Source of the DNA: an uncultured Ignavibacteriaceae bacterium
GTDB taxonomy: Bacteria > Bacteroidota > Ignavibacteria > UBA10030
Length of the DNA stretch: 64,000 nucleotides
Direction of reading: 5' to 3'
Assembly (NCBI GenBank): GCA_964581115.1
Contig: CAZOMY010000010.1
Coordinates: forward strand, 8,764 to 72,763
This document shows positions 1,566 to 33,210 of the stretch, in pieces. Numbering within the stretch: position 1 is the first letter of the stretch; each line of letters opens with the position of its first letter. The notes beneath the pieces are model-generated. The model ran no database searches, had not been told where the DNA came from, and saw only the letters and a list, made by a program, of their open reading frames with translations. The position numbers and the translations under genes are program-made.

Positions 1566-1607
1566 GTACCCGTGGAGTCCTCAGATCACTCGGTTCCCGT
1601 GACAGTC

Positions 1608-9266: not shown

Positions 9267-9320
9267 GTCCATTCGGAGTGTGGAATGCGATCGGAACGAT
9301 GTGCGGTCGAGCGTTGCATC

Positions 9321-12416: not shown

Positions 12417-12467
12417 GTTCGGTGTTCGTCCGATACTGAGGCCGGCCGCGTCGTCAGAACGGGCCGG

Positions 12468-17304: not shown

Positions 17305-17381
17305 ACGAGCTCGGGCGATGTTCCTTGAACAACAACGGCGGCCCCATCAGCCGCCGCCGGTCATTGGCCTCACCTTGCTCC

Positions 17382-18359
17382 TCACAGTGTGTGTGGGCTG
17401 GCCTGGAGCTCATTCCAGATCAGCGCACCCGCTCCCAGGACGGCCGTGTTCCCATCGGGAAGTCCGGACGGAAGAACAGCCACTTTGTCCTTGAAGATGT
17501 TCAAGACGTTCGCCTCCAGATACCGTTTGACCGGCTTCAGCAGGAGATCTCCGGCGGCGGCCACGCCTCCGACGAGGATGATCGCCTGAGGGCTGAGATA
17601 CGCCACGGCGTCGGCCAGGCTGGTTCCAAGCCATCGAGCCGTCCGGTCGAACGTTTCGAGCGCCAGCCGATCACCCCGCCCGGCCGCTTCGGCCACCTGC
17701 TTCGCCGTCAGGTCGTTGAACGGGATCTGGCGCAATTCGCTTGCGTCCATCGTCGTCGCGATCAGTTCATATACGGTCCTCCGAACGCCATTCGCCGAGG
17801 CGTACGCCTCGAGACAACCGCGCCGGCCGCATCCGCACTCGCGTCCGTTGCGTTCGACGATCGTGTGGCCGAGCTCACCGGCGAATCCATCCGCCCCGTA
17901 GATGAGCTGCCCGTTGGCGACGATGCCGCTCCCCAGGCCGGTCCCGAGGGTGACGACGATGAAGTCCTTCATCGACCGAGCCGCACCGAACAGCATCTCG
18001 CCCAAGGCGGCGGCATTCGCATCGTTCGTGACGGCTACCGGTACCTTGAAATGCCGGGAGAGCTCGCCGACGACGTCGACGTGGTCCCAACTGAGATTGG
18101 GCGGCTGCTCGATGGTCCCGCGATAGTAGTTCGCATTCGGCGCGCCAACGCCGATGCCCATGAGCTCCCACGAGCCCGACAGGGAGCGCCCAAGGTCGGC
18201 GGCGGCCTTCTGAACCCGGTTGAACAGAAGCGACGCAGGCTGGTGGGCATTTGTGGGGATCGACGTCTCGCCCATGAGCCGGCCGGCCGGATCCACAAGG
18301 CCAAGGACGGTGTTCGTTCCGCCGATGTCGATGCCGAGGCACAACCCCTTGGAATTCAT
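17382..18359 (-). CDS. glk: ROK family sugar kinase (glucokinase)
   Basis: LGIDIGGT, GIGVGAP, TNDANAAALGE, TLGTGLGSG, GELGH, CGCGRRGCLEAY. True start 18359; the track's upstream extension is an off-frame read of the transporter gene. Confidence 0.92.
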   Translation of the reverse strand: MNSKGLCLGIDIGGTNTVLGLVDPAGRLMGETSIPTNAHQPASLLFNRVQKAAADLGRSLSGSWELMGIGVGAPNANYYRGTIEQPPNLSWDHVDVVGELSRHFKVPVAVTNDANAAALGEMLFGAARSMKDFIVVTLGTGLGSGIVANGQLIYGADGFAGELGHTIVERNGRECGCGRRGCLEAYASANGVRRTVYELIATTMDASELRQIPFNDLTAKQVAEAAGRGDRLALETFDRTARWLGTSLADAVAYLSPQAIILVGGVAAAGDLLLKPVKRYLEANVLNIFKDKVAVLPSGLPDGNTAVLGAGALIWNELQASPHTL

Positions 18360-18382
18360 CGACGACTGTCCGCGCTGATCGG

Positions 18383-19693
18383 TCAGGCGTGCGCGAGCGC
18401 CGGACGATGTCCGCGGGCTCCGTAGTATGCGATGTAAGCGTAGCACAGGACAGGAATGATGAACGCCGACTGAATGCCGATCGAGTCGGCCAGTACGCCC
18501 TGCAAAACAGGCACGATGGCGCCGCCGACGATCGCCATACACAGGATCCCCGAGCCCTGGCCGGTGTGACGTCCCAGTCCATGGATCGCAAGCGTGAAGA
18601 TGGTCGGGAACATGATGGAGTTGAACAAGCCGACCGCGAGGATCGCCCACATCGAGACGTGACCCGTCGAGAGGATCGCGGTGATGACCAGCATCATCAC
18701 CGCGACGGCATGGATGGTCAGAACCCTTCCCGGAGCGACGGAGCGCATGACCGCCGATCCGATGAAGCGACCGACCATGGCTCCGCCCCAGTAGAATGAG
18801 ACGTAGCGACCCGCCTCTGCTACCGACATGTCGCCGATCGACGGCTGGCTGATATAGTTTACCAGGAAGCTTCCGATGGCGACCTCCCCGCCGACGTAGA
18901 CGAAGATGGCGATGGCGCCCAGGACGAGGTGACGGTACCGCCAGGCGCTCGGATGCAGATGGTCCTGATTGTGCCCGCTCTCCGACGCCGCCTCGGACGC
19001 TTCGACCCGCGGAAGCTTGAACAGGCCGAAGACGAACGCGACGATCAGCAATGCCGACGCCAGGCCGATGTATGGATTCTGGACCGACGCCGCCTCGGCC
19101 GCCCGGTACGCCTCGACCTCCACCGCACTCATAACGTTCAATTCCGCCGGCGTCTTGACGGCGTTCGAGAGGATGATCCACGAACCGAACAAGGGCGCCA
19201 CGGTGGTGCCGAGCGAATTGAACGCCTGCGTGAGCGTCAGACGGCTGCTGGCGGTCTCGGGCCGGCCCAAGATGGCCACGTAGGGATTCGCCGCCACCTG
19301 TAACAGCGTGATACCCGACGCGAGAATGAACAACGCGATGAGAAAGATCTCATACGATCTCTCCCCCGCCGCCGGGTAGAACAGGATGCAGCCGACGGCC
19401 GCCGTCACGAGGCCGACGATGATGCCGGCCTTGTAGCCGAACTTTTCGACGAACCAACCCGACGGCAACGAAACGACAAAATACGCCGTGAAGAAGCTGA
19501 ATTGAATGAGCATCGCTTGGGCGTAGTTCAGGTCGAACACCGCCTTGAGGTGCGGAATGATGATGTCATTGAGACAGGTCAGAAAGCCCCACATGAAGAA
19601 GAGCGACGTGAGCACGGTCAACGCCGGCGTATAGTTTGCCGACGGCGGTACGTCGACCATCTTCGTGGGTGTCGTGCCGGGGGTCGAGGCCAT
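18383..19693 (-). CDS. gluP: Glucose/galactose (GluP/FucP-type) MFS transporter
   Basis: [70 protein letters not shown]; about 12 TM segments. Confidence 0.93.
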
Positions 19694-19766
19694 ACAGGTC
19701 TGGTGTGGATCGGAATGGGTTCAGGTCTTCCGGGCAAGCCCGGCGTTCATGAGATCTGCCAGCAAC

Positions 19767-21566
19767 TCAATACGTCAATCCGAAACCGAATGGGAACAAC
19801 GGATCGGCTTTCGCGTCGCCGATATTGATCGGGATCTGGCCCATCGAGCGGGGCCATGAATGGGGCAGCTTTCCGTTCGGCGCGACCACACCGAACAGGA
19901 CGTCCGTCACCCCTGCCCCCTCGGAACCCGGGAGCCATGCCGCCACCAACGCGCTGCATTTTGGGAGGATCTCGTCGACGATCAACGGACGCCCCGACAG
20001 CAACACCACCACCGTCGGCACGCCGGTCGCATGAACGGCATCGATCACGGCGAGGTCTCGGGAATGCAGGCGAAGGTCGCTTCGGTCTCCGAACATCTCG
20101 GCGTACGGCTCTTCGCCCACAACGACGATAGCAACATCGGCACTGTCGGCCCCCTTGCCGTCGGCCGAGTACGTCACGGTGGCGCCAAGGCCGACGCTTT
20201 GCTCGACGGCGTGCAGGATGGTCGTGCCGCCGGTCAGCCGGCGTCCCTCTCTACCCTGCCAGTCGATGGTCCATCCGCCGCACTGTCGTGCCATGTCATC
20301 GGCGGCACTGCCGGCCACGTGGATCTTTCCGGTCAGCTTCGAAAGCGGGAGGACCTTGTTCGCGTTCTTCAGCACGACGACCGACTTCTGGACGGCCGTG
20401 CGGGCCACGCGACGATGCGCTTTCGAACCCACGGACTCCAGACCCGCCTCCGTCGGCGCCTTCCGGTCGACAAGACCCATCTCCATTTTGACCGTCAGGA
20501 TGCGGCGGACGGCGTCGTCGATGCGCGACATCGGAACGGCACCTTTTTTGACGAGCTTCGTCAGTTCCGTGACAAACTCGATATAGTTGTTCGGTTTGTC
20601 AGGTCCATTCGGGATCATCACCATGTCGATTCCCGCGTTGATCGAGGAGGCGATCTGTTCGGGGTACGTGCCGGGAAGCTGATCGATGGCGGCCCAATCC
20701 GACACGATGAAACCCGAGAATCTCAGCTCGCCCTTCAACACGTCGGTCATGAGGTACCGATGGCCGTGCAGCTTCGAGCCGTTCCAGCTGCTGTACGACG
20801 CCATGATCGAACGGGCTCCAGCCTTGATGGCATCGATGTATCCTGGAAGATGGATCTTCCGCAGGGTGGCCTCGTCCATCTCGGTGTTCCCCTGGTCTTT
20901 GCCTCCTGTCGTCCCGCCGTCGCCGACATAATGCTTTACGCAGGCAAGCGCCGATGTCGGCGCTGCAAGATCGGCGCCTTGCATGCCTCGGACATACGCA
21001 GCTCCCAGTTGCCGTACGAGTTCTGGGTCCTCTCCGAAACTCTCGTACGTCCGGCCCCACCGCTCATCTCGTGCCACCGCGACGCAGGGGGCAAAATCCC
21101 AATTGATGCCGGTGGCCAACATCTCGGCGGCCGTCACGCGGGCGACCGCTTCCACGATGCCAGCATCGCGCGTCGCACCCAGGCCCACATTGTGCGGCAT
21201 GATCACGGCATCCGTCAGATTGTTGTGGCCGTGGACGGCATCAACGCCAAGCACAAGCGGGATCTGCAGCCGGGTCTTCGAGGCCAGCGCCTGCAATTCT
21301 CCCGAGACGCGGAGCCAATGGGCGGCCGAAACCTCCGGTAGCTCGGTATTGCCCCCCCAGAGAACAGAACCGAGCGCATACGTCGTGACGTCCTCAAACC
21401 GCCCCTTGAGGGCATCGTAGTCGGCCTGCGTCATCTGGCCGACCTTCTCTTCCAGCGTCATGCGCTTCAGAAGTTCATCGACGCGCTGCGGGACCGATTG
21501 CGCGAGCGTGAGGCTGGATGTGCACGCGGCCATCAGAAAGGTCCGGCGAAGGATTCGATCGATCAT
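19767..21566 (-). CDS. GH3 beta-glucan glucohydrolase (exo-1,3/1,4-beta-glucanase type)
   Basis: EEKVGQMTQ, DAVHGHNN, RWGRTYESFGE, KHYVGDGGT, IVSDW, CGGWTIDWQG, GEEPYAE, LFPFGFGL. Start MIDRILRR at 21566 with signal peptide. Confidence 0.92.
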   Translation of the reverse strand: MIDRILRRTFLMAACTSSLTLAQSVPQRVDELLKRMTLEEKVGQMTQADYDALKGRFEDVTTYALGSVLWGGNTELPEVSAAHWLRVSGELQALASKTRLQIPLVLGVDAVHGHNNLTDAVIMPHNVGLGATRDAGIVEAVARVTAAEMLATGINWDFAPCVAVARDERWGRTYESFGEDPELVRQLGAAYVRGMQGADLAAPTSALACVKHYVGDGGTTGGKDQGNTEMDEATLRKIHLPGYIDAIKAGARSIMASYSSWNGSKLHGHRYLMTDVLKGELRFSGFIVSDWAAIDQLPGTYPEQIASSINAGIDMVMIPNGPDKPNNYIEFVTELTKLVKKGAVPMSRIDDAVRRILTVKMEMGLVDRKAPTEAGLESVGSKAHRRVARTAVQKSVVVLKNANKVLPLSKLTGKIHVAGSAADDMARQCGGWTIDWQGREGRRLTGGTTILHAVEQSVGLGATVTYSADGKGADSADVAIVVVGEEPYAEMFGDRSDLRLHSRDLAVIDAVHATGVPTVVVLLSGRPLIVDEILPKCSALVAAWLPGSEGAGVTDVLFGVVAPNGKLPHSWPRSMGQIPINIGDAKADPLFPFGFGLTY

Positions 21567-21657: not shown

Positions 21658-22677
21658 TCAGAACTGCACGCCGAGGGTGATCTTCTGAACGCTGGCCAGG
21701 CGCGCAAAGTCCTGGTACGCGTAATCAAGGCTTAACCGCACATTGCCGATGACATACTGACGGACACCCAGGCCGAGCGCCAGGCCTTCCTCCGAGTCGG
21801 CAAGGAAGAGGGTCTTGTATCCTCCGCGTACATACAGCACGTCGTTGAACTGGAACTCGCCTCCGACATTCACGCTCTCGAAATCGTCGCTGGGGTGCTG
21901 TGCGTCGGCCGCGAGCGTCAGATGGCCCACCTCGCCCATCGGCAGGTCGTAGGCCAAGCCGACGCGAAAGTTGAGAGGAAGCTCCCATTCCTCCGTGGCC
22001 AACTGGGCGGGGATACGGCCGTTGTTGCCCGAACCCGACGGGTCCGGGTCATAGAGCACCAGCGCGTTGTTCCCCTGCATCTGTATCTTCGTCCCGAAGT
22101 TGGAGATCGACATGCCGAGCGTGAACCCTTCGAACGGCGTGCGGTATTTGACGCCAAGGTCGATGGCGAAGGCCGTCGCGCTCATCTTCCAGATCTTCTG
22201 GTGGACGAACTTCGGCGTGAACCCGATGGCGAATGCGTCCGTCAACTTGATGCCGTACGACAATCCCACGGCCAGGTCGGAGACCCCGAACACCTCTCCC
22301 GTCCCCTCCTGACGCTCGACGGTCGTCACCGCCATGTCGCCGATGTTCGACATCGTCACGCTGAAACCGACAACCCCGATCGGTCCGGCCGAGACCGTCG
22401 CACCGACGTAGTTGTAGGTGATATCGGCGATCCACGAAGTATTGTCGACCAGGAATCCAATGCCCTCGAGATCTGCAAGGCCGGCGGGGTTCCAGTAGAG
22501 GGCCGACGGGTCATTGACCACGGCCACGAACGCCCCGCCCATGGCCATGCCGCGGGCTCCCTGCGCGATCGAGAGGAAGGTCGCGGCGGTCGTGCCGCGC
22601 TTCGAGACATTCTGCCCCACGACGGTCGTGCCGACGGCGATGAGGCCCAAGAGCAATCCGAGAACGATCCGTTTCAT
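21658..22677 (-). CDS. PorV/PorQ-like outer membrane beta-barrel
   Basis: Signal peptide; GTTAATFLSIAQGARGMAMGGAFVAVVNDPSALYWNPAGLA N-terminal motif; alternating beta-strands; ends in aromatic GVQF. Confidence 0.85.
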   Translation of the reverse strand: MKRIVLGLLLGLIAVGTTVVGQNVSKRGTTAATFLSIAQGARGMAMGGAFVAVVNDPSALYWNPAGLADLEGIGFLVDNTSWIADITYNYVGATVSAGPIGVVGFSVTMSNIGDMAVTTVERQEGTGEVFGVSDLAVGLSYGIKLTDAFAIGFTPKFVHQKIWKMSATAFAIDLGVKYRTPFEGFTLGMSISNFGTKIQMQGNNALVLYDPDPSGSGNNGRIPAQLATEEWELPLNFRVGLAYDLPMGEVGHLTLAADAQHPSDDFESVNVGGEFQFNDVLYVRGGYKTLFLADSEEGLALGLGVRQYVIGNVRLSLDYAYQDFARLASVQKITLGVQF

Positions 22678-22684
22678 GTTCGCC

Positions 22685-25600
22685 TCACTTCACGATCGCG
22701 AATTTACCGACATGCTCGCCGACTCCGGGGGCTTCGACGTGGTAGATGTACAGACCGTAGGCGACCTCCATCCCGTCGTCGGAGATGAGGTTCCAGGGCA
22801 ACGATCCATCCATCGGCGACGAGTTTTTTCGAAGCGTCGCGACGAGTCCGCCGCTCACGGTGTAGATGCGCACCGTACATTGGGCCGGGAGGTTCTTGAA
22901 CTCGATCTTGCGTTCGCCCCGCCCCGTCACATACAACGTACGCCGCTCCCACGACGCGGTTGCGATGTAAGGGTTCGGCACGACCGCGATCCGGTCAAGG
23001 CCGTTTTTGGCGCCCTCAAGGTCGGTCCGCGAGCCGCGCGTCGTGAACTGGAACTCGTCTCCCGTCAGGAAAGGCCGGAGCGTCTTGATGAGATACCGGT
23101 CGTCCGGTTGAGGATAAAGCGTGTCGGCTCCGAACGGCCGGCCGTACGTCAGCTTCCACGTGAACTTGAAGTTCGACGGACTGACGAATTGCTCCAGCAC
23201 CCGGATCGTGTCTCCAATGCTCAACGTGTTTGAACCGTCGATGTCGTGCACGATGAATTTCGACCGCCCGCCCGTCCACAGGTTGGTGACGGTGAAATTG
23301 ACCGGCATCAGGGGATACTTCGACGCTGGTGCATTCAACGCCGTCGTGTCGACCACATGGTCGAACCACTTGATCTCGTAATCGGTCGGCCATGCCACGG
23401 CCCGCGAGGTCACCGTCATGTCGCGCGCCACGCGCATGAACAGGTTGCTGCGGCCGACCACCCATCCGGTCGCGGAGTCATTCAGCACCACGGCGGTGTC
23501 ATTGGCCACCGACAGCACCATTCCGTCGAACGGCGGCGAGAACCGTCCGGCCCCGATGTTGGCACTATCCAGGCCCCGATACAGCGTGTCCGTCACCGTT
23601 CCGGTCGTTCGGAACAGATCATACGATCGTGTTCGGTAGGCAGGAACGGTCGAATCGGCCTTGAAGCGGACGGTATACCGAGCCCCGTCGATCACCTGGC
23701 TCGGGTCAAGGATGATCAGACCGAGCGAGCCAGTACCGAGGCCGGAGGTCACCCGTTGAAGATCCCCCTCTGCCGTCGGCGGCTGGTAGCCGGCGGCCGG
23801 TCCGTTGGGAGTCACGACCGCACAGTTGATATCGATGAACTTGAGCGAGCCGGCGAAATCCTCCGTGATGATCTTGGTGCACTCTGTCGGCTGCAGCCCT
23901 TTTGTGCCCCGGTTCGGATCACCGGTGTCATACGAGACGAGGGCATAGTAGTAGCGAACGCCGTTCAGGACGGTCGTGTCGATGTAGGAGTGGACGAGAC
24001 CGGTGTTGGAGCCCCGCCAGAAGCTCGCGCCGTTGATCCCCACAGGGTCAGGTCCCGCGATGCTGTCGACGATGTCCCACTGAGCGATCGGCTTCCAGTA
24101 CTTGCCGGATCCCTTGGAATCCGTGATGATCTTGATATCGTTGAATTCCGCCTCCGTACTCCGGTACAGAAGATACCCCTCGAAATCCCTCTTATAGCCC
24201 TTCGAAGGGTCGCTCGGATCCTGGAGACCCATGAAGCGGTCCACGGAGCGTTCCGCCGTGTTGTCCCAGTAGAGGAACACGCGGCCATTCCCCGGTACGG
24301 CGGTCAAGCGCGGCGTGAAGGGCGGCTTGGAGAAGTTGTAATTGGCGTTATAGATCTCCTGGACCGTTTCCTTGTTGAAGATCAGGTCATCGAGGTTCTC
24401 GCCGAGAGCGAGAGCCATGGAGAAGCGCTCCCGCCTCCCTTGCCGGAGCGGGAACGGCCCCGACGAAAAGGTCATGCTGATGTTCGTGTTGGCAATGGCC
24501 GTGTCACGGAATCCGCTGTTCATCTTCTGCCAGATGATCTCGTCATTCTTCGGCCAGCCGCCCGACGGTCCCTTGTCGGCCAACGCCCAGATCGCCGCCG
24601 AAGAGAGACCGATCTGGTCCGACTCATCCTTGTCCGTCTGATCGAAGTTCGGTTCGCCCGTCGTCGGAACGCCGTCTCCCTCCCCCGGATCCGGCCCGGA
24701 GTACTGCAGGTCGGTCGGACCGACGCCGTCCCGTCCCAGGTCGTCGTTCAGCGGCTCACCGGGATCCCATGTTCCGCTGGCATTCAGATCGGTGAAGGAC
24801 ACCCAGTCGTTGTCATTGTCAAGGAGGTCGTCGCGGCGTTCGTCGATCATGCCGTCTTCGTCGTCGTCGAGCCCGTTCAGGGCATTGCCGGGGCTCTCGA
24901 GGTAGGCGTAGCCGACGTAGCCCGTTTTCCAGTTGTCGGGCACCCCCATGCCGCTGGTATTCCATGCGTAGGCCAGGTCCAAGAGCGAGTTGTACCGTGC
25001 GCTGTTGCCTGATGCGCTCGGTCCGCCCACACCGGGGTCGGTGTAGAAGCCGAAGCAGGTCGAATCGTAGTCCCAATCGGAGATGTTGACGATGTCGTAG
25101 TGCCAGAAGATGATGTCCTCCGCCAGAACGTGCGACCACTGAAAGCCGCGCACTTCGACGCGGAATCCGAGACCTCCGCGGGCGGAATCGCCGGCGACCG
25201 GATAGTAGAGGAATGGCGGCCGCGTGAACTCACGGTCTTTCGAGTCGTCCATGACGAAGAAGGTCTCCAGGTCGGAGTTCGTCACGCCCCGTCCGAAGTA
25301 GCCGTACCAATGACCGTTCCATGATGGGTCAAGGCCAAGCGCCGACGGCCAGAACCGAGGGAACGTGGACGTGTCGCGGTTGACGGCCGGGGTGGGCGTG
25401 GGTCGACGGCTGGGGTTGTCGTATCCCGGCACCGGCTGCAAGACCCACTCCATGCCCGTAACCGGGTCTCGATCGACCTCCTCGCGGTATGCCGACAGAA
25501 TGGGAGAGATGATGTTCCCGTTGCCGGGAGCGATCGTGCGCGCACCGATGAGAACGGCGACGCCGTCCATGTACGAGTGATTCGTCCCCTTGGGCCACAC

Positions 25601-26131
25601 CACCGACGGCTGGAAATTCCATTTAGCCACTTCGCCGTGGTTGTAGAACAACGTCGAGATGAGGTTGCCGTTCATGACCCCCTCTCGACGGGCCGTCACA
25701 TCGCCCAGCCGGTCTGCGCGGTAGACGATCGTGCTCGGGTCGAGCACGACATCGCCAAAGGCCGTCACCCGCACCGGTCGCGGAACCGTCGAGGAATTGC
25801 TCGTGAACGTGACGGACGCGGTGTCCAGACCGGCTTTGCGCGGACGCCAGGTCATCGTCACCTGAAAGGAGTCTCCCGGCGCGATGACGGCGAGAGCGGG
25901 ACCGAGCTTGAGGGCGAAGTTCGATGAAGCCGCTGCGGAGATGGTCAGCAGACCCGAACCGGTATTCTTCACGAACAGCTGGGTCGAGGCGATCGGCTGA
26001 CCCACCCTCACGCTCCCGAGATGGAGGGAATCGGAGTTCGGCGTCAGGACGGGTTGTGCCACGGCGGACGTCGCGCCGGCAAGGAGGAGTGCGCACACAT
26101 GCGTTCGGATCACGGTCAGCTCCTGGACCAT
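22685..26131 (-). CDS. Large secreted protein of unknown function: Ig-like (ASH-type) domain, conserved core, acidic Ca-binding-like repeats, Fn3, atypical CTD
   Basis: Signal peptide (start ATG 26131 or GTG 26113, which has AGGAG); DSLHLGSV...LFVKNTGSGLLTI Ig domain; GNLISTLFYNHG core; DDDEDGMIDE/DNDND repeats; PRLTAVPGNGRVFLYW; C-terminal IAVVPNPY...IEFKNLP...IRIYTVSG-like...GLYIYHV...KFAIVK. Confidence 0.85.
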   Translation of the reverse strand: MVQELTVIRTHVCALLLAGATSAVAQPVLTPNSDSLHLGSVRVGQPIASTQLFVKNTGSGLLTISAAASSNFALKLGPALAVIAPGDSFQVTMTWRPRKAGLDTASVTFTSNSSTVPRPVRVTAFGDVVLDPSTIVYRADRLGDVTARREGVMNGNLISTLFYNHGEVAKWNFQPSVVWPKGTNHSYMDGVAVLIGARTIAPGNGNIISPILSAYREEVDRDPVTGMEWVLQPVPGYDNPSRRPTPTPAVNRDTSTFPRFWPSALGLDPSWNGHWYGYFGRGVTNSDLETFFVMDDSKDREFTRPPFLYYPVAGDSARGGLGFRVEVRGFQWSHVLAEDIIFWHYDIVNISDWDYDSTCFGFYTDPGVGGPSASGNSARYNSLLDLAYAWNTSGMGVPDNWKTGYVGYAYLESPGNALNGLDDDEDGMIDERRDDLLDNDNDWVSFTDLNASGTWDPGEPLNDDLGRDGVGPTDLQYSGPDPGEGDGVPTTGEPNFDQTDKDESDQIGLSSAAIWALADKGPSGGWPKNDEIIWQKMNSGFRDTAIANTNISMTFSSGPFPLRQGRRERFSMALALGENLDDLIFNKETVQEIYNANYNFSKPPFTPRLTAVPGNGRVFLYWDNTAERSVDRFMGLQDPSDPSKGYKRDFEGYLLYRSTEAEFNDIKIITDSKGSGKYWKPIAQWDIVDSIAGPDPVGINGASFWRGSNTGLVHSYIDTTVLNGVRYYYALVSYDTGDPNRGTKGLQPTECTKIITEDFAGSLKFIDINCAVVTPNGPAAGYQPPTAEGDLQRVTSGLGTGSLGLIILDPSQVIDGARYTVRFKADSTVPAYRTRSYDLFRTTGTVTDTLYRGLDSANIGAGRFSPPFDGMVLSVANDTAVVLNDSATGWVVGRSNLFMRVARDMTVTSRAVAWPTDYEIKWFDHVVDTTALNAPASKYPLMPVNFTVTNLWTGGRSKFIVHDIDGSNTLSIGDTIRVLEQFVSPSNFKFTWKLTYGRPFGADTLYPQPDDRYLIKTLRPFLTGDEFQFTTRGSRTDLEGAKNGLDRIAVVPNPYIATASWERRTLYVTGRGERKIEFKNLPAQCTVRIYTVSGGLVATLRKNSSPMDGSLPWNLISDDGMEVAYGLYIYHVEAPGVGEHVGKFAIVK

Positions 26132-26135
26132 CTTC

Positions 26136-28859
26136 TCAGAAATTCCACGTGACACCCAACCGTACCTGGCGCGGTGCCGAGAACGAGGCTGGGTTGTTGA
26201 CATACTCGTCGATCGTGTTCAGGCCGATGATCCGGCCTGCGAGGTACGTGTAAAGGTCGATATTCGCTCGTCCGCTGGCGGTATTGACGCCGTACTCGTT
26301 CTTCGTGTCGAGCAGGTTGTACACGAGCGCGAACACGGTGAGATCCACCGGGCCGAACGAGATGGTCTTTTCAGCCCGTAGGTCGACGTTGAAGGTCGTC
26401 GGTCGGGTGCCGCCGTTCTCGAAACGGAGGCCGTTCGACACGCGTACATCTTCGGTGTATGGGAAGCCATTCCCGTACTGTGCGATCAGGCCGACGTTCC
26501 AGTCGCCCGGGTCGCCCACCGTCACCGAGACGTTCAGCGTCGAACGCTGGTCCCAGTCGAGCGGCACGACCTTCTTGTTGGTTTCGGTGGGCGGATCGGT
26601 CTGGTTGTTGTAGTACACGGCATACGGGTCGGAAGCGTTCCCCTCGGCGATCTGATAGGTGTAATCGGCCCGTACACTGAAGCCGCCGATGAAACGCCGC
26701 TCGAGGCTCAGGATGAACCCCTTCACGTTCGCATAGTCTCGATTGATGAAACGCGAGAACCGGAAGCCTTCGTAGGTGCTCAGGATCTCCATCCCGAGCA
26801 GATTGCGGATGTCCCGATAGTAGATGGTGAAATCGAGACCCAACTGACCGAAGAGCACCTGCTGCAATCCGAGTTCGTACATCACCGTTCGCTGCGCTTC
26901 GAGGTCCGGATTGCCGAGAATGCTCGAAAGGTTGTCGCCCTGGTTGACGAGATAGTTGGAGTTCAGGTAGAGGTTCTCGAAACTCGGGATCTGGAAGAAG
27001 TGCCCATACGAGAAGTGGATGATCCCTTCGTCGGTGATCGGGAACGATACACCGAGCCGTGGACTCACCTGGACCTTCGGCGTCGTCTCTTTGACACGAC
27101 CGGCGTTCGGAAACTCCGGGTTCCCCGACGGGTTACGCAGGTCGAGTGGATACGACGCGTTCGGGTTGAAATAGTCCACCCTCACACCTGCATTGATGAT
27201 CATGATATCGAATTCGATCTTATCCTGCGCGTAGGCGGAGAATTCGTACGGCTCCTTGAAGTAGAGCGTGTGGCCCGACGTGCCGACATCCGGATAGCCG
27301 ATCTCAAAGAGGAGGGCCCCGGTACTGTCCGTCAGCACGGTGTTTCGGTTCAGGATCGTCTTCCAGTGGTTGTAGATCTCGTGCATGCGTCCCTCGATGC
27401 CGATACCGATCTTGTGGTGGGCATCGAGCTGGGACGAAAGCGACCACTGACCGATCCACGACCGGGTGTGACGGTCGTAGCGGTCGGAGGCCTGTCCGCC
27501 TGAACGGAAGGTGTAGTTCGAAATGGGCGTTCCCTGCGAGGGGTCGACATACCGGGGGTCGAACTCGTCCTCGTACACATAACCCTTGTAGTCGAACTGA
27601 TTGTACGATGCCTTGAAGGTCTGGTAGGTATTCGCCGTCGGAGAATGGGTGACCTGGAATGACGAGACCCAGTTCGTCCGGTAGTGGTTCATGATGCCGT
27701 CGGGCGTTCGGGAGAATCCATGATCATAGTACTTGTTCCAGTGGTCCTCCCACAGCAGACTCCCGCTGAACTTCAGATACCCCAGGCTGTACGAAAGCTT
27801 CCCGTTCGCCGTGGTGCGCTTCGTGGGATTCATCGGGACATACGCACCGTCTCCGGAGTGAGGGATGATATAGACCGGATCGCCGTTCGGCAACAGGATC
27901 GCATTGCCGATCGGGTCGCGCAGCTGGTACGGCGAACGGTCCGATGTTCGGAACACACGACGGCCGTACAAGTAGCCGTCGTCCTGGTATGCGCGCAGGC
28001 TGCCGAAGAACGAGAATCCGCCGGCGATCGGGCCGCTCAGGCTTCCCTGAATGTTGGCCGTCCGGAACGGATCGACCTGTATCAGGTTCATGTAGGTGGA
28101 ATGGTGCGACGTGATGTAGTCGCCCGCATACATCGACAGGGAGCCGTGGAAATCCGAGGCCCCCTCCTGTGTGACGATATTCACGACGCCCGACATTGCC
28201 TGGCCGTACTCCGCGTTGAAGGTGCCGCTGATGACCTCCATTTCGCGGATCGTCGTATTGTCGACCTCGACGCTCATGCGGCCGTTGAACGGGTCGACCA
28301 CCGAGACGCCGTCGATGAGGTACGCCACTTCGTTCGACCGACCGCCGCGGAAATGGCCGCCGACGACACCCGCCTGAATGTTGACCACCTGGCTCAGGTT
28401 CTCCGTCGGGATGCGCTTGAGGTCGTCCGCCGAGAGTGTCACAGAGCTCGACGTCAGGTCCTTCTGGACCAGCGGCCGCTCGGCTCGGACGATGACCTCC
28501 TGTCCTTCGATCGCTTCCGCCTGTAACTTGGCGTCGACGCGGGTGGTCTGGTCGATACGTACCTGCACATTCGTCACCGTCGTCCGGCGATAGCCGACGT
28601 AGCTCACCACCACTTGATACACCCCGGGAGGGATGTTGTTGATCGTGTAATGTCCGTCGACGTCGGTCGTCGTTCCCAGGGTCGTACCGACCAGCAGAAC
28701 ATTCGCACCGACGAGCGGCTCGCCCGTCGTGTCGTCGGTGATCGTGCCGGCGATCTTACCGGTCGTGCCGCCCAACACCAGGGCGGGTATCAGCAGGAGC
28801 ATCCACAGCAGACCGGCGGCGCGGCCGCCGCGCTCGAAGTGGCGTCGGAAGGGATTCAT
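26136..28859 (-). CDS. TonB-dependent receptor (carboxypeptidase-regulatory-like N-domain + plug + barrel), not SusC-type
   Basis: GTTGKIAGTITDDTTGEPLVGANV; plug HFRGGRSNEVAYLIDGVSV...MEVISGTFNAEYGQAMSGVVNIVT; barrel SPRLGVSFP...FSYGHFFQ; terminal PRQVRLGVTWNF. Confidence 0.93.
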   Translation of the reverse strand: MNPFRRHFERGGRAAGLLWMLLLIPALVLGGTTGKIAGTITDDTTGEPLVGANVLLVGTTLGTTTDVDGHYTINNIPPGVYQVVVSYVGYRRTTVTNVQVRIDQTTRVDAKLQAEAIEGQEVIVRAERPLVQKDLTSSSVTLSADDLKRIPTENLSQVVNIQAGVVGGHFRGGRSNEVAYLIDGVSVVDPFNGRMSVEVDNTTIREMEVISGTFNAEYGQAMSGVVNIVTQEGASDFHGSLSMYAGDYITSHHSTYMNLIQVDPFRTANIQGSLSGPIAGGFSFFGSLRAYQDDGYLYGRRVFRTSDRSPYQLRDPIGNAILLPNGDPVYIIPHSGDGAYVPMNPTKRTTANGKLSYSLGYLKFSGSLLWEDHWNKYYDHGFSRTPDGIMNHYRTNWVSSFQVTHSPTANTYQTFKASYNQFDYKGYVYEDEFDPRYVDPSQGTPISNYTFRSGGQASDRYDRHTRSWIGQWSLSSQLDAHHKIGIGIEGRMHEIYNHWKTILNRNTVLTDSTGALLFEIGYPDVGTSGHTLYFKEPYEFSAYAQDKIEFDIMIINAGVRVDYFNPNASYPLDLRNPSGNPEFPNAGRVKETTPKVQVSPRLGVSFPITDEGIIHFSYGHFFQIPSFENLYLNSNYLVNQGDNLSSILGNPDLEAQRTVMYELGLQQVLFGQLGLDFTIYYRDIRNLLGMEILSTYEGFRFSRFINRDYANVKGFILSLERRFIGGFSVRADYTYQIAEGNASDPYAVYYNNQTDPPTETNKKVVPLDWDQRSTLNVSVTVGDPGDWNVGLIAQYGNGFPYTEDVRVSNGLRFENGGTRPTTFNVDLRAEKTISFGPVDLTVFALVYNLLDTKNEYGVNTASGRANIDLYTYLAGRIIGLNTIDEYVNNPASFSAPRQVRLGVTWNF

Positions 28860-28870: not shown

Positions 28871-28906
28871 AGAAAAGAAAGGGGCGCACCGGGGTGCGCC
28901 CCTTTC
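28871..28906 (-). terminator. Intra-operon intrinsic terminator/attenuator
   Basis: 14-bp perfect inverted repeat GAAAGGGGCGCACC-NN-GGTGCGCCCCTTTC followed on the minus strand by TTTTCT; 8 nt after the stop at 28915. Confidence 0.75.
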
Positions 28907-28914
28907 CGGGTTGG

Positions 28915-31419
28915 TCACTTCACGAGCAGCATCTTCCGGATGGCGGCGTTGGCTCCCGCCTCCAGCCGGAGGAAGTACACGCCGGATGCGATCGAGCGAC
29001 CCGACCGGTCGGCGTTGAACGTGACGACATACGAGCCGGCGTCCTGCGTGCGGTCGACCAGCGTCTCGACCTCGCGGCCCATCATGTCATACACCCGCAG
29101 ACTCACAGGACCCGACGTTGGAACGCTGTAGCGGATCTCCGTGGTGGGGTTGAACGGATTCGGATAGTTCTGGCCCAGCTCAAACGACGTCGCAACGTCG
29201 CTCACCTGTTCGACGCCGACCGTCGAGGACTTGTCGCCGATCCAGGTGTAGGTCCAGTAGAACATGTCGCTCCACGAGTTGTCGTTCGTCAGCGTCGAGT
29301 AGCACATGATGCCATCGCGCGTCGCCTTCGTGTCGCGGTCGTTGATGGCGAAGTCGATCGGGATGCGCATGCCTTCCACCGGCGAGAAGAGCGCGTCGCC
29401 GGCATGGAGCGCCGCCAGGTCCGTCCAGCGGATGCGCGCTTCAGACACGTAGCCCGGCGAAAGCAGCTTCTCCGTCCAAGCATAGTCGGCGCTGATGGTG
29501 TCAACCCGCTTGCCGCCGTTGTCGAGCCAGATGCGGTGCTTCGAGAACCGGAGGTGATAGTCCGGGGTCGCGCCGCGCGTGTAGCCTGAATGCCGCTTCC
29601 CGCGCCAGTCATACAAGCCCACGAAGATATCGGCGCAATCCTGCTCGTAGTCCGTCGCACCGATATCGACCAGAACGACGTCGTCGGTGACGTCGAAAGC
29701 GACATAGAGATAGGTCGCGTCCATGGCGACATAGGCCGTCGCCGACAGGTCGTTGTCGCCCGTGATCGGGAAATTCGGCACGGCATGCGCCGTTCCCGAC
29801 ACCGTCGACAGGACGAACGGCGTGATCGTCGACCATTCAGACAGATCGCCGTCGGCCGTAAAGGTCGCTGGACCCGTCTTCGAGATCGTCGGCACGCCTT
29901 TCGCCAGCGTCGTCACCGGGGTCGTCATGATGACCGGCGAACTCTCGTTGCCGGCCGGGTCCTTCGACACGACGCCGTAGTAGTAGGTGAGATTCGCATC
30001 GGTCTTCGGAACGCGGAGCGGATGCGTCGCCACCGCGCTGGTAATGTTGTACGGCGGCAGGTCTTCGACTGTCGAGTCGTCGACGGCGGTCCACGGATGG
30101 TCGGCGAAGTACACGTTGTAGCGAATGCCCGGCTCGTTCGGGACGTCGTTCCAGGTCACCAGATTGACGTAGCCGGTGCCCGCGCCCGCAAGGCCTGAAG
30201 GCGCATCCGGCGGAATGACGTCAAACTCGGGCGCCCCGGTCCACAGGTCGGTGATGTAGATGACCTTGCCTGCGATGCCGGAAGCTTCGGCCATGATGCC
30301 GAACGTGTTGACGTTCGACGAGTCAAAGCCCGTCGTGCCGTCCTGATAGACCATGTTTCGGAGGGCAAAGATGTAGTCGTGCCATGCACCGTCGGCGGTC
30401 GGGGTGAAGACCACGCCGACCTTTCCCTTCTGGCTGGGATCGCCCAGACGCGGAGACTCGAACTGAACGCGAAGCGCGCCGACCCCTGCTTCAGCCTTCA
30501 TCTTGAACTTGAGGCTGTCCTTCACCCAACCGCCGGCGAGGTTGAAACCGGGGTTGATGTCGAAGCCGATACCCGTCCAACCGTTGCCCCATTCGTTGCC
30601 CTGCGTCCACTTGATGGCGTTCGTCTTCGGCAACGGACCGGCGTTTAACTCGAGCGTGATCGATGATTGGCCCCAAGCCCACTTATTCGTGATCTGCGGC
30701 GAATAGTCGCGACCGTTGAACATAACGGCCGGCACCGCCCGCAACCCGAACCGCTGGAAACCGTCCAGCTTGAATTCGAGCGAGTCGGCCGGGAGGTTGG
30801 CACCCGGGTCCCAGCCAGAAGTCACGAACGCGATCTTCCAGCCGACGATCTTGTCGCGGTCGAACTTCTTGTTGTTGTAGGTGAAGCCGCCCCAGTTCGT
30901 CGGGGCGTAAACAAAGCCGGCGTCGCTCGGGACCGTCGAGCCGTCCGAGACCCGCTCGGTCAGGGGGATCTTCAGATTGACCCAGTCGCTCACGGCATCC
31001 AGGATCGTCGCGTTCTCATACAGCCAGTCCTCTCGCGTACCATCCGTCGAGTCGACGAGGTGGATGCGCATGACCATATTCGCCGGGATCTTCGGCGCTT
31101 CGGTCACCTTGATCCAGATGCTGACGGAATCGCTGATGCTGATGTCGACCACGGTACCGCTCGGCCAGCGCGCCTCGATCTGCGAGAAGGAACCCCATCC
31201 ATGGAACGCACCAATGGCCGTCCGGATGTTCGTCGAAGCGATCCCCTCCTGCTTGTCGGCGAGGTCTTGCGTCATCCTGATGTACGTCGGAGCCCCTTCC
31301 GACGCAAAAAAGAATGCCGAATCGGGATTCGGGGTATCAAAGGACTCGATGACCGTCTGGCCGAATGCCGGAACGGCAACGAGCGCCATGATGACCAGTA
31401 GGAACTGTAGCATCCGCAT
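28915..31419 (-). CDS. Non-catalytic T9SS cargo with two galactose-binding-fold/CBM-like domains, Fn3-like and CBM9/DOMON-like sugar-binding domain
   Basis: Strong RBS AAAGGAGA; signal peptide; aromatic-rich jelly-roll-like segments; DVIPPDAPSGL Fn3 start; ADGDLSEW...DLSATAYVAMDATYLYVAFDVTDD CBM9-like; CTD QNYPNPFNPTT...SGVYFLRL. No GH catalytic motif recognised. Confidence 0.75.
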   Translation of the reverse strand: MRMLQFLLVIMALVAVPAFGQTVIESFDTPNPDSAFFFASEGAPTYIRMTQDLADKQEGIASTNIRTAIGAFHGWGSFSQIEARWPSGTVVDISISDSVSIWIKVTEAPKIPANMVMRIHLVDSTDGTREDWLYENATILDAVSDWVNLKIPLTERVSDGSTVPSDAGFVYAPTNWGGFTYNNKKFDRDKIVGWKIAFVTSGWDPGANLPADSLEFKLDGFQRFGLRAVPAVMFNGRDYSPQITNKWAWGQSSITLELNAGPLPKTNAIKWTQGNEWGNGWTGIGFDINPGFNLAGGWVKDSLKFKMKAEAGVGALRVQFESPRLGDPSQKGKVGVVFTPTADGAWHDYIFALRNMVYQDGTTGFDSSNVNTFGIMAEASGIAGKVIYITDLWTGAPEFDVIPPDAPSGLAGAGTGYVNLVTWNDVPNEPGIRYNVYFADHPWTAVDDSTVEDLPPYNITSAVATHPLRVPKTDANLTYYYGVVSKDPAGNESSPVIMTTPVTTLAKGVPTISKTGPATFTADGDLSEWSTITPFVLSTVSGTAHAVPNFPITGDNDLSATAYVAMDATYLYVAFDVTDDVVLVDIGATDYEQDCADIFVGLYDWRGKRHSGYTRGATPDYHLRFSKHRIWLDNGGKRVDTISADYAWTEKLLSPGYVSEARIRWTDLAALHAGDALFSPVEGMRIPIDFAINDRDTKATRDGIMCYSTLTNDNSWSDMFYWTYTWIGDKSSTVGVEQVSDVATSFELGQNYPNPFNPTTEIRYSVPTSGPVSLRVYDMMGREVETLVDRTQDAGSYVVTFNADRSGRSIASGVYFLRLEAGANAAIRKMLLVK

Positions 31420-33193: not shown

Positions 33194-33210
33194 ACGCGAA
33201 TGGGGATCGT

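What the first reader, a model, noticed from the sequence alone, without database searches (positions are those of the whole stretch)
21658..28859. TBDR + large atypical-CTD protein + private PorV-like barrel: candidate SusC/SusD-independent import machine
Seen: three tightly coupled genes (gaps of 4 and 7 nt): a non-SusC TonB-dependent receptor, a ~1150-aa secreted protein with no catalytic motif, and a PorV-like barrel, placed at the head of a glycan operon where susC-susD normally sits. Established: PorV binds T9SS CTDs at the cell surface. Inference: the large protein is exported by the T9SS, stays docked on its cognate PorV paralogue and caps the receptor, acting as a functional SusD analogue. 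I recall similar triads in Ignavibacteria/Calditrichota-type genomes but know of no functional characterisation; this needs a literature check. Best candidate for an undescribed system in this window.
Basis: partly seen in the sequence, partly recalled or inferred. Interest (0 to 1): 0.92.

Follow-up and report, generated by a model that had tools for sequence, protein, structure and literature searches.

The report
SusD-less outer-membrane glycan import triad
Three tightly linked genes (a TonB-dependent receptor, an unannotated ~1,100-residue surface protein with a variant type IX secretion tail, and its own PorV-like barrel) form a widespread, uncharacterised module that probably does the job of SusC/SusD in bacteria that mostly lack those genes.

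Summary
On the minus strand lie a non-SusC TonB-dependent receptor (26136-28859), a 1148-aa protein with no catalytic domain (22685-26131) and a PorV/PorQ-family barrel (21658-22677). The gaps are 4 and 7 nt, and the genes sit inside a ~35-kb beta-glucan locus.

The order receptor, large protein, barrel is kept in essentially every one of about 80 loci from Ignavibacteria, Rhodothermales, Calditrichota, Marinimicrobia, KSB1 and others. The three proteins co-diverge. Their subfamilies follow the CAZyme type of the locus (starch, beta-glucan or PF10091-type) rather than taxonomy: the nearest relative shares the type in 35-37 of 38 cases.

The large protein has a signal-peptidase-I signal and no lipobox. 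A confident AlphaFold model (pLDDT 88.6) is all-beta, with a supersandwich like the non-catalytic domain of glycan phosphorylases. Its C-terminus is homologous to type-A T9SS CTDs (hhalign 93%) but carries a conserved insertion.

T9SS export, docking on the private barrel and capping of the receptor remain inferences; no multimer prediction was possible. The searchable literature holds no description of the system. The module usually includes a fourth gene, a canonical-CTD binding protein, and often a SurA-like PPIase.

The parts
26136..28859 (-). TonB-dependent receptor, 907 aa: signal peptide, CarboxypepD_reg N-terminal extension, Plug, 22-strand-type barrel. Not SusC family.
   Evidence: Pfam and NCBIfam, (TIGR04056 79 bits against cutoff 368). 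PDB sequence hits cover only the N-terminal 17-194 of SusC homologues. Conserved directly upstream of the large protein in 65 of 70 loci.
22685..26131 (-). Large surface protein ('BIG'), 1148 aa, from a family with no Pfam or NCBIfam model for its body. Domains (residues, then nt): SPI signal 1-26; Ig (choice-of-anchor D/ASH) 27-125, nt 25757-26053, absent from many homologues; beta-supersandwich core 131-420, nt 24872-25741; acidic Ca-binding-like irregular region 421-510, nt 24602-24871; FN3-like 606-740; variable beta-sandwich domains 741-1045, nt 22997-23911; variant type-A CTD 1046-1148, nt 22688-22996, with an insertion at 1054-1071.
   Evidence: 4837 representatives at E<=1e-3; no PDB sequence hit; CTD hhalign 93.4%; AF2 pLDDT 88.6, pTM 0.79; Foldseek; no lipobox; conservation by region.
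21658..22677 (-). PorV/PorQ-family 14-strand FadL-type outer-membrane barrel, 339 aa. A paralogue distinct from canonical PorV and PorQ.
   Evidence: NF033709 215.6 bits (cutoff 90); PorV equivalog 83.7 (cutoff 250); PorQ equivalog 98.4 (cutoff 220). PDB PorV 6h3i_F E 2e-7. Directly downstream of BIG in 71 of 78 loci. Tandem triads each carry their own copy.
28915..31419 (-). CBM9 + canonical type-A CTD protein, 834 aa. Likely the T9SS-displayed surface glycan-binding protein of the module (the 'fourth gene').
   Evidence: Pfam CBM9_1 and Por_Secre_tail, TIGR04183. Syntenic in close relatives and some Marinimicrobia. In 36 of 52 loci the gene just upstream of the triad carries a type-A CTD.
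28876..28907 (-). 14-bp GC-rich hairpin followed by a U-rich tract, between the CBM9-CTD gene and the receptor gene. Terminator- or attenuator-like.
   Evidence: RNAfold -27.3 kcal/mol, z -3.4. A strong hairpin occupies the same position in 9 of 9 related loci, with unrelated sequences.
31733..36014 (-). Sensor and regulator genes: periplasmic solute-binding protein (34710-36014), histidine kinase (33211-34713) and sigma54-dependent response regulator (31733-33193).
   Evidence: Pfam annotations (L002, identical contig). A sigma54 response regulator recurs beside related triads.
15307..21566 (-). Downstream operon genes: periplasmic GH3 beta-glucosidase (19767-21566), MFS sugar transporter (18383-19693), ROK kinase (17382-18359) and GH9 + CTD endoglucanase (15307-17304).
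13368..15203 (-). SurA-like PpiC-type PPIase family member, 611 aa and divergent (no Pfam hit). A recurrent companion of the triad.
   Evidence: A profile built from the 21 flanking PPIases hits it at E 5.7e-43. A same-strand homologue is present in 25 loci.
1527..13307 (.). Rest of the beta-glucan locus: GH5+CBM6+CTD-like (1527-3626, +), GH16+malectin+CTD (3749-5557, -), GH5 (5554-6780, -), GH3+F5/8+CTD (9321-12416, -) and GH16 (12468-13307, -).

Best explanation
The three genes encode a substrate-specific outer-membrane nutrient-import module. It takes the place of SusC/SusD in FCB-group lineages that have few or no susCD pairs.

Proposed mechanism:
1. Extracellular, T9SS-displayed glycan binders and hydrolases of the locus (CBM9-CTD, GH9-CTD, GH16-CTD) capture and cut beta-glucan.
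2. The TonB-dependent receptor imports the oligosaccharides.
3. Periplasmic GH3, the MFS transporter and the ROK kinase finish the pathway.
4. [quoted passage not shown]
5. Instead of being cleaved and linked to LPS, it keeps its CTD and is held non-covalently by the cognate PorV/PorQ-family barrel encoded next to it, as PorZ is held by PorQ and PorU by PorV.
6. So anchored, its conserved N-terminal supersandwich, Ca-binding and FN3 parts contact the receptor. Its variable C-proximal beta-sandwich domains (residues 741-1045) bind the glycan and hand it to the receptor. This makes it a functional, non-homologous analogue of SusD or of a surface glycan-binding protein.

Shown: gene order, family assignments, conservation, co-divergence, co-variation with CAZyme type, CTD homology, absence of a lipobox, and an all-beta non-catalytic fold.

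Inferred: T9SS export, CTD retention on the private barrel, contact with the receptor, and glycan binding.
For: Conservation and coupling:
- Near-universal order receptor, BIG, PorV-like in about 80 loci from at least six phylum- or class-level lineages.
- Gaps of -4 to about 30 nt in most loci suggest translational coupling.
- Pairwise distances of the three proteins correlate (r 0.78-0.89). Nearest neighbours agree in 45-58% of cases against 1.6% by chance.
- Subfamilies follow locus CAZyme type across phyla: the nearest neighbour shares the type in 37, 35 and 35 of 38 cases; permutation mean 13, maximum 26.

Locus context:
- Flanks hold CTD-bearing GHs and CBMs, LacI or sigma54 regulators, and SSF, ABC or MFS sugar transporters.
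- 104 of 342 flanking ORFs carry a type-A CTD.

The large protein:
- Its tail is homologous to canonical CTDs (hhalign 93.4%, E 2.5e-7). It keeps a Lys six residues from the C-terminus (K1143), which I read as the near-invariant C-terminal Lys of type-A CTDs described in PMC10994853 (alignment not extended to it; one search stops at residue ~1135). It carries a conserved insertion.
- SPI signals with no lipobox across the family.
- The AF2 model (pLDDT 88.6) is all-beta. It resembles the non-catalytic beta-supersandwich of GH94, GH149 and GH15-type enzymes, and PorZ is the top hit.
- The most variable region is 741-1045 and the most conserved are the Ca-like region, FN3 and CTD.

Literature precedents:
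- Retained CTDs bound to PorV or PorQ, and cognate PorP/SprF barrels (PMC10202324).
- FadL-type BamG anchoring surface BamH (PMC12611786).
- Non-SusD lids on non-SusC transporters (bioRxiv 10.1101/2023.03.17.533168).
- susCD is scarce in Ignavibacteriales and absent in Kapabacteria CAZyme clusters (PMC10576277).
Against: - No physical interaction was tested or predicted.
- The CTD does not reach the Pfam or TIGR type-A thresholds.
- The test of whether BIG's CTD is unusually conserved compared with cleaved cargo CTDs was inconclusive.
- Some triads sit in loci without CAZymes, or beside peptidoglycan-type enzymes, so 'glycan' may be too narrow.
- The immediate canonical-CTD neighbour (CBM9, CBM20, FG-GAP and others) could be the real substrate binder, which would leave BIG a different role.
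- A separate canonical PorV in this genome was not demonstrated.
- Foldseek TM-scores are low because of the multidomain query.
Confidence: 0.55

Rival explanations
1. BIG and the private PorV-like barrel form a locus-specific attachment or organising complex. They collect and tether the locus's canonical CTD cargo (the CBM-type binder and the GHs) around the receptor. BIG plays a PorZ/PorU-like scaffolding role rather than binding substrate or capping the receptor.
For: PorZ is the top Foldseek hit, and the only NCBIfam hit to the tail is the PorZ CTD. In 37 of 42 loci a canonical type-A CTD gene lies directly next to the triad. BIG's conserved regions are the same whatever the substrate class.
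Against: PorZ similarity has a very low TM-score and BIG lacks PorZ's beta-propellers. BIG has a strongly variable region that tracks locus type, which fits substrate recognition better. A general attachment complex would not need one copy per locus.
Confidence: 0.15
2. BIG is a shuttle, not a lid. It is exported by the T9SS with the private barrel acting only as its dedicated export carrier, as SprF does for SprB. Its CTD is then removed, and BIG is released or LPS-linked. It captures glycan at a distance and delivers it to the receptor, in the manner of a hemophore.
For: Type-A CTDs are normally cleaved. Binding to PorV outside the translocon is expected to be weak (PMC10994853). The cognate PorP/SprF requirement for particular cargo is established (PMC10202324). 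A 1,000-aa multidomain protein is much larger than any known lid.
Against: The conserved CTD insertion and the one-to-one co-divergence of barrel and BIG suggest a lasting specific contact. So does the tight co-divergence with the receptor. A soluble shuttle would be costly in open water, where the Marinimicrobia that carry the module live.
Confidence: 0.15
3. BIG is a new all-beta, Ca-dependent carbohydrate-active enzyme (hydrolase or lyase) that processes the polymer at the mouth of the receptor.
For: There are many invariant acidic and aromatic residues (E289, D296, R328, W332, E412 and others). The Ca-binding-like region is conserved. All-beta GH and PL folds exist.
Against: No catalytic family matches in Pfam, NCBIfam or PDB sequences. 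Structural matches are to non-catalytic domains only. The invariant residues are shared by subfamilies tied to alpha-glucan, beta-glucan and other loci, which is unlikely for one active site. The loci already encode the expected endo-acting GHs.
Confidence: 0.07
4. The adjacency reflects co-regulation only. The receptor imports on its own, and BIG with its barrel is an unrelated surface adhesin or S-layer-like pair that travels with it.
For: No interaction data exist. Some loci lack CAZymes.
Against: Near-100% adjacency across phyla, conserved order, tiny gaps, equal divergence rates and congruent phylogenies that track substrate type are hard to explain without a shared function.
Confidence: 0.05

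Closest known systems
SusC/SusD pairs of Bacteroidota polysaccharide utilisation loci
   Same: A TonB-dependent transporter with a CarboxypepD_reg N-terminal extension is encoded beside a non-catalytic surface partner. The pair sits in a co-regulated CAZyme locus, has many paralogues and shows subfamilies that follow substrate type.
   Different: The receptor is not SusC family (79 against 368 bits). The partner is unrelated to SusD: all-beta rather than TPR-helical, about twice the size, and with an SPI signal plus CTD instead of a lipid anchor. A third, obligatory barrel gene is present.
PorZ-PorQ and PorU-PorV pairs of the T9SS attachment complex
   Same: A CTD-bearing surface protein whose CTD is proposed to be retained and held by a PorV-family FadL-type barrel. 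PorZ is the best structural and NCBIfam match to BIG's tail.
   Different: Those pairs are single-copy housekeeping parts of the secretion system and are not encoded beside a transporter. BIG lacks PorZ's propellers and PorU's protease domain. The barrel fails both the PorV and the PorQ equivalog cutoffs.
Type-B CTD cargo with cognate PorP/SprF barrels (e.g. SprB-SprF)
   Same: The gene for a large surface protein is clustered with the gene for its own PorV-like barrel, which is needed for its export or anchoring.
   Different: BIG's tail is a type-A variant, not type B (CHU_C hit in 1 of 32 members). The barrel scores as PorV/PorQ family, not PorP/SprF (E 0.004, below cutoff). No transporter is involved in the SprB-type pairs.
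Non-SusD lids of non-SusC TonB-dependent transporters in Bacteroides (BtuG-BtuB; Price et al. 2023)
   Same: Non-homologous surface partners encoded next to non-SusC transporters and proposed to cap them.
   Different: Those lids are lipoproteins for small substrates such as vitamins. BIG has no lipobox and is found in glycan loci.
BamG-BamH canopy of the Bacteroidota BAM complex
   Same: A FadL-family barrel used as a membrane anchor for a large extracellular protein next to another barrel. The partner BamM has a metal-structured region without secondary structure, like BIG residues 421-510.
   Different: BamH is a lipoprotein and the complex serves OMP biogenesis. The window barrel scores only 26 bits against BamG (cutoff 250).

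Membership tests
Canonical SusC/SusD PUL | SusC/RagA-family TonB-dependent transporter (TIGR04056) | tested here: not met
   79.1 bits against cutoff 368.25. The match covers only residues 35-160, the N-terminal extension.
Canonical SusC/SusD PUL | Adjacent SusD/RagB-family lipoprotein | tested here: not met
   No SusD Pfam or NCBIfam hit in the large protein. No lipobox in 62 family members. The model is all-beta.
Canonical SusC/SusD PUL | Co-located CAZymes, regulator and inner-membrane sugar transporter | tested here: met
   GH3, GH9, GH16, GH5, MFS, ROK, and SBP-HK-sigma54 RR in the window. The same holds in related loci.
TonB-dependent receptor | Plug domain plus TonB_dep_Rec beta-barrel | tested here: met
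   PF07715 30.2 bits (cutoff 23.9) and PF00593 87.4 bits (cutoff 27).
T9SS type-A CTD cargo | C-terminal domain matching TIGR04183 / PF18962 | tested here: inconclusive
   No hit at the curated thresholds. Only FlgD_ig hits in 4 of 32 members. Profile-profile comparison with the window's seven canonical CTDs gives 93.4% probability, E 2.5e-7, with a 14-residue insertion.
T9SS type-A CTD cargo | N-terminal Sec signal peptide, and a T9SS present in the organism | tested here: met
   SPI-type signals ending A-Q across the family. At least seven canonical CTD proteins are encoded in the window. Core T9SS genes themselves are not in the window.
T9SS type-A CTD cargo | T9SS-dependent export | not testable with these tools
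   Needs a T9SS mutant or a secretome analysis.
PorV/PorQ family (NF033709) | Score above the curated subfamily cutoff | tested here: met
   215.6 bits against cutoff 90, over the full length 29-339.
Canonical PorV (NF033710) or PorQ (NF033711) | Score above the equivalog cutoff | tested here: not met
   PorV 83.7 against 250; PorQ 98.4 against 220.
Type-B CTD / PorP-SprF pair | CHU_C (PF13585) tail and PorP_SprF (PF11751) barrel | tested here: not met
   CHU_C hits 1 of 32 BIG members at E 0.004. PorP_SprF scores 17 bits against cutoff 22.3.
PorZ-PorQ-like stable CTD-barrel anchoring | Uncleaved CTD bound to the cognate barrel at the cell surface | not testable with these tools
   Only indirect support: adjacency, co-divergence and a conserved CTD insertion.

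The most novel reading that the evidence does not exclude
The triad is a previously unrecognised kind of outer-membrane machine: a three-component 'T9SS-anchored utilisome'. A TonB-dependent transporter is permanently partnered with a giant Ca-structured surface protein, and that protein is fixed to the membrane by its uncleaved secretion signal plugged into a dedicated FadL-type barrel rather than by lipid. It would be the main route of polysaccharide uptake in Ignavibacteria, Rhodothermia, Calditrichota, KSB1 and the abundant ocean Marinimicrobia, and an evolutionary alternative to SusCD.
Probability: 0.35. Interest if true: 0.9.

Novelty: new variant of a known kind. Interest (0 to 1): 0.82.

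Why it matters
PUL prediction, and much of marine and soil carbon-cycle genomics, keys on susC/susD pairs. Lineages without them are scored as poor glycan users or left unexplained (PMC10576277).

This module offers a concrete, testable answer and a new genomic marker. The central protein family is large: 4,837 50%-identity cluster representatives at E<=1e-3, and thousands of members in each of three clades. Every source-given name in the lists returned is 'hypothetical protein'. It is abundant in ocean metagenomes.

Mechanistically, it would extend the role of the T9SS CTD and of PorV-family barrels from secretion to the permanent assembly of nutrient-uptake complexes. It would also show a second, independent solution to putting a substrate-binding partner on a TonB-dependent transporter.

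Cultured carriers exist, so experiments are feasible. Roseithermus sacchariphilus RA was verified here, and carriage by Ignavibacterium album is inferred from NCBI organism names on hits at 61% identity. Probable carriers include Rhodothermus marinus (Rmar_1070-1072).

Tried and rejected
- First AF2 run used a shallow alignment (33 sequences, at least 57% identity). It gave pLDDT 62, and the Foldseek output was dominated by the N-terminal Ig domain, so it was uninformative. A 63-sequence three-clade alignment fixed this.
- Profile search of the large protein against PDB sequences: no hit.
- Pfam on 32 diverse family members: nothing for the body.
- Test of whether BIG's CTD is more conserved relative to its body than the CTDs of ordinary cargo: ordinary cargo shows the same pattern in 3 of 4 clusters, so the test does not discriminate.
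- Sigma54 promoter: a TGGCAG-N5-CTGCA element lies 34 nt upstream of the CBM9 start (31454-31468). Such matches occur at chance frequency in the window (58 against 49 expected). A strict pattern found none in 11 related loci. Left as a weak lead.
- The consensus terminator scan missed the intercistronic hairpin. Direct folding found it.
- Single-linkage clustering of flanking ORFs with loose coverage merged everything through CTDs. It was redone with 60% coverage of the longer sequence.
- Literature: nine searches found no description of the triad.
- R. marinus Rmar_1070-1072 (PMC6987092, Table 1) looks like the same triad but could not be verified. The genome-collection scan and the homology searches were exhausted.
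- Multimer or fused-chain prediction was not possible.

Full report
**What is there**

All genes of interest lie on the minus strand.

- The receptor (26136-28859, 907 aa) has a CarboxypepD_reg N-terminal extension, a Plug and a TonB-dependent barrel. It scores 79 bits on the SusC/RagA model against a cutoff of 368, and only over the N-terminal extension. In the PDB only its first ~190 residues resemble SusC homologues.
- Four nucleotides after its stop codon (TGA-gaag-ATG) begins a 1148-aa protein (22685-26131), here called BIG. Its only family hits are an N-terminal choice-of-anchor-D/ASH Ig domain and a weak hit to the C-terminus of PorZ.
- Seven nucleotides later (TGA-ggcgaac-ATG) begins a 339-aa barrel (21658-22677). 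It passes the PorV/PorQ family model (215.6 bits against cutoff 90) but fails both the PorV and PorQ equivalog cutoffs. Its only PDB sequence match is F. johnsoniae PorV (6h3i_F, E 2e-7).

**Context in the window**

- Upstream lie a solute-binding protein, a histidine kinase and a sigma54-dependent response regulator (31733-36014). They are followed by a CBM9 protein with a canonical T9SS type-A CTD (28915-31419).
- Downstream lie GH3, an MFS transporter, a ROK kinase, GH9+CTD and a 611-aa SurA-like protein. Further on are GH16, GH3+CTD, GH5, GH16+malectin+CTD and GH5+CBM6.
- This is a beta-glucan utilisation locus of about 35 kb whose extracellular proteins use T9SS tails instead of lipid anchors. 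The triad is not the first gene of the operon; the CBM9-CTD gene is.

**Is the triad real and conserved?**

- BIG belongs to a very large family whose source-given names, where present in the lists returned, are all 'hypothetical protein'. It has 4,837 representatives of 50%-identity clusters at E<=1e-3 and 619 at E<=1e-30.
- Three searches seeded from three clades each returned thousands of proteins. Where a source gave a name, it was 'hypothetical protein'.
- A scan of one genome per GTDB species returned 80 loci. They come from Ignavibacteria, Melioribacteraceae, Rhodothermales, Calditrichota, Neomarinimicrobiota, KSB1, Krumholzibacteriia and Stahlbacteria.
- I searched the ORFs of these loci with the window's three proteins. 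A homologous receptor lies directly upstream of BIG in 65 of 70 assessable cases, and a PorV-like gene directly downstream in 71 of 78. Every exception is a permutation within the same cluster (L016, L029, L063, L020), a truncated fragment (L084) or an ORF-boundary artefact (L030, L086).
- Some contigs carry two triads in tandem, each with its own barrel (L045, L053, L085).
- An 'Ignavibacterium album' MAG carries a 31%-identical paralogue, while I. album also has the 61%-identical orthologue. Genomes therefore hold several paralogous triads.

**Do the three proteins evolve as a unit, and with the locus?**

- Pairwise distances of receptor, BIG and barrel across 65 triads correlate at r = 0.89, 0.78 and 0.81. 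Mean divergence is almost identical (0.61 each). Nearest neighbours agree in 45-58% of cases against 1.6% expected.
- Clustering triads by receptor + BIG distance groups them by the CAZyme content of the locus, not by taxonomy.
  - One clade, spanning Ignavibacteria, Calditrichia and Rhodothermales, always sits with PF10091 glycoamylase-like enzymes, GH94 and LacI.
  - Several clades spanning Marinimicrobia, Calditrichota, Rhodothermales and Ignavibacteria sit with CBM20/X25 binders and GH13.
  - The window's clade, and a Marinimicrobia clade, sit with CBM9, GH16, GH3 and GH2.
- Among 38 triads with an unambiguous locus type, the nearest relative shares that type in 37 (receptor), 35 (BIG) and 35 (barrel) cases. 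Permutations give a mean of 13 and a maximum of 26.
One caveat applies: orthologous loci inherited together contribute to the signal, although the clades do cross phylum boundaries.

**Flanking genes**

- Of 342 flanking ORFs (three on each side), 104 carry a type-A CTD, in 60 of 81 loci.
- The gene immediately upstream on the same strand has a canonical CTD in 36 of 52 loci, and the gene immediately downstream in 28 of 59. At least one of the two does in 37 of 42 loci.
- These neighbours are mostly non-catalytic binders: CBM9, CBM20+X25, FG-GAP and unknown families.
- The most recurrent single neighbour is a ~600-aa double-rotamase, SurA-like PPIase (21 loci among the three flanking genes per side; 25 loci anywhere in the ±10 kb held, counting two window-duplicate contigs). 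The window's 611-aa protein at 13368-15203 matches its profile (E 5.7e-43) although Pfam sees nothing in it.
- Other frequent neighbours are LacI or sigma54 regulators and SSF, ABC or MFS sugar transporters.
- Not every locus is a plant-glycan locus.
  - In the cultured Roseithermus sacchariphilus RA the triad sits with an FG-GAP-CTD protein, Amidase_2, SpoIID and GHL10.
  - In an abundant marine Marinimicrobia lineage a four-gene cassette (CTD protein, receptor, BIG, barrel) lies next to tonB and housekeeping genes.

**What is BIG?**

- It has a signal-peptidase-I type signal, as do 62 relatives, and no lipobox. It is not a lipoprotein, unlike SusD and the other known lids.
- Its last ~100 residues are homologous to the window's own canonical type-A CTDs (hhalign 93.4%, E 2.5e-7). 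A lysine six residues from the C-terminus (K1143) is conserved in the family. I read it as the near-invariant C-terminal lysine of type-A CTDs described in PMC10994853. The hhalign alignment stops before it, so this equivalence was not aligned here.
- The tail carries a ~14-residue insertion after the first strand (residues 1054-1071). The insertion is conserved across the family. It is the only low-confidence stretch in an otherwise confident AlphaFold model (pLDDT 88.6, pTM 0.79). 'Atypical CTD' is thus accurate.
- The model is almost entirely beta. It has a large N-terminal sandwich; a 90-residue acidic region without secondary structure but with high confidence, reminiscent of Ca-structured repeats (DxDxDG motifs, invariant D/E/G); an FN3-like domain; further beta-sandwich domains; and the CTD.
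- Foldseek finds PorZ first (E 2e-7, low TM-score). It then finds the non-catalytic N-terminal beta-supersandwich of GH94, GH149, GH116 and GH15-type glycan phosphorylases and hydrolases, for example 6hq6 over 484 columns at rmsd 6.6 A. No catalytic domain is present.
- Conservation is highest in the Ca-like region (0.60), CTD (0.54) and FN3 (0.52). It is lowest in residues 741-1045 (0.27-0.30). This is what one expects if the conserved parts build the complex and the variable parts recognise different substrates. That reading is an inference.

**Mechanism**

The most economical reading is an outer-membrane import module that replaces SusC/SusD. The receptor imports oligosaccharides. BIG is Sec- and then T9SS-exported and stays at the surface because its variant CTD is held by the private PorV-family barrel. 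From there it works with the receptor as binder, lid or both.

The anchoring step has direct precedent. PorU and PorZ keep their CTDs and remain bound to PorV and PorQ, and type-B cargo needs cognate PorP/SprF barrels encoded next to it. The review that summarises this suggests that cognate PorV-like barrels protect CTDs from cleavage (PMC10202324). FadL-type BamG likewise anchors surface BamH next to BamA (PMC12611786, PMC12578637). Non-SusD lids on non-SusC transporters are known in Bacteroides, but they are lipoproteins (bioRxiv 10.1101/2023.03.17.533168).

None of the physical contacts was tested here. I put 0.55 on this explanation as a whole. I put much more on 'conserved substrate-specific uptake module' and considerably less on the specific picture of BIG capping the barrel like SusD.

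The rivals are:
- a locus-specific attachment scaffold for the neighbouring CTD cargo;
- a cleaved, released shuttle, with the barrel acting only as export carrier;
- a novel enzyme;
- mere co-regulation.

**Comparison with what is known, and novelty**

- The system works like a PUL but fails both defining membership tests for a canonical one: no SusC-family transporter and no SusD.
- The barrel is a member of the PorV/PorQ family but is neither PorV nor PorQ.
- The tail is a divergent type-A CTD.
- Nine full-text searches found no paper describing the triad. One paper notes that susCD is scarce in Ignavibacteriales and absent in Kapabacteria CAZyme clusters (PMC10576277).
- The R. marinus xylan locus table lists Rmar_1070 (TonB-dependent receptor), Rmar_1071 (hypothetical, Por tail) and Rmar_1072 (hypothetical) without comment (PMC6987092). 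This is probably the same triad, but I could not verify it.
I could not check what that family is.
- The library excludes most subscription journals, so prior description elsewhere cannot be ruled out.
- I rate the finding as a new variant of a known kind, namely TonB-dependent glycan import with a surface partner. There is a real chance that it is a categorically new type of outer-membrane complex.

Noticed in passing
window 28876-28907 (-); same position in L001, L005-L009, L011-L013: A 14-bp GC-rich hairpin (-27.3 kcal/mol, z -3.4) followed by a U-rich tract sits in the 55-nt gap between the CBM9-CTD gene and the receptor gene. All nine related loci checked have a strong hairpin at the same place with unrelated sequence. 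This suggests a conserved attenuator or transcript-stabilising element that sets the ratio of binder to transporter.
   Followed up: partly
window 13368-15203 (-); 25 loci, e.g. L016:10273-12090, L014:11905-13569: A ~600-aa SurA-like protein with two PpiC rotamase domains is the most recurrent companion of the triad and is always on the same strand. The window's copy matches the family profile (E 5.7e-43) but has no Pfam-detectable rotamase domain. The T9SS translocon and the Flavobacterium BAM canopy also contain PPIase-fold subunits.
   Followed up: partly
window 31454-31468 (-): A sigma54-like -24/-12 element (TGGCAGccaatCTGCA) lies 34 nt upstream of the CBM9-CTD start codon, next to the sigma54-dependent response regulator gene. 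It is not above chance in the window and was not found with a strict pattern in 11 relatives.
   Followed up: partly
window 33211-36014 (-): The solute-binding-protein gene overlaps the histidine-kinase gene by 4 nt, and the sigma54 response regulator follows. This looks like a binding-protein-dependent sugar sensor controlling the locus, in place of the hybrid two-component or ECF/anti-sigma systems of Bacteroides PULs.
   Followed up: no
L045, L053, L085: Two complete or near-complete triads lie in tandem on one contig, each with its own PorV-like barrel. In L085 a rotamase and an FG-GAP-CTD gene lie between them.
   Followed up: partly
L089 (Roseithermus sacchariphilus RA, CP020382.1:1957202-1980621): A cultured, completely sequenced carrier. 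Here the triad sits with a LytTR two-component system, an FG-GAP-CTD protein, Amidase_2, SpoIID and GHL10. The substrate may be peptidoglycan-like rather than a plant glycan.
   Followed up: no
L090 (marine Marinimicrobia contig; protein P0482, listed in 255 blocks of the contig collection): A minimal four-gene cassette (unknown CTD protein, receptor, BIG, PorV-like) lies next to a divergent tonB gene, with no CAZymes nearby. It is very abundant in ocean metagenomes.
   Followed up: no
I could not tell whether it covers part of this family.
   Followed up: no
window 60629-63979 (-): A 1116-aa secreted protein has two PLD-like domains, DUF5689, a Big_5 domain and a canonical T9SS CTD. It is probably a surface or secreted nuclease or phosphodiesterase, unrelated to the glycan locus.
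   Followed up: no
PMC6987092 Table 1 (Rhodothermus marinus DSM 4252 xylan locus): Rmar_1070 (TonB-dependent receptor), Rmar_1071 (hypothetical with Por tail) and Rmar_1072 (hypothetical) sit between CTD-bearing xylanases and beside a canonical susC/susD pair. If this is the same triad, both systems coexist in one locus of a genetically tractable organism.
   Followed up: no
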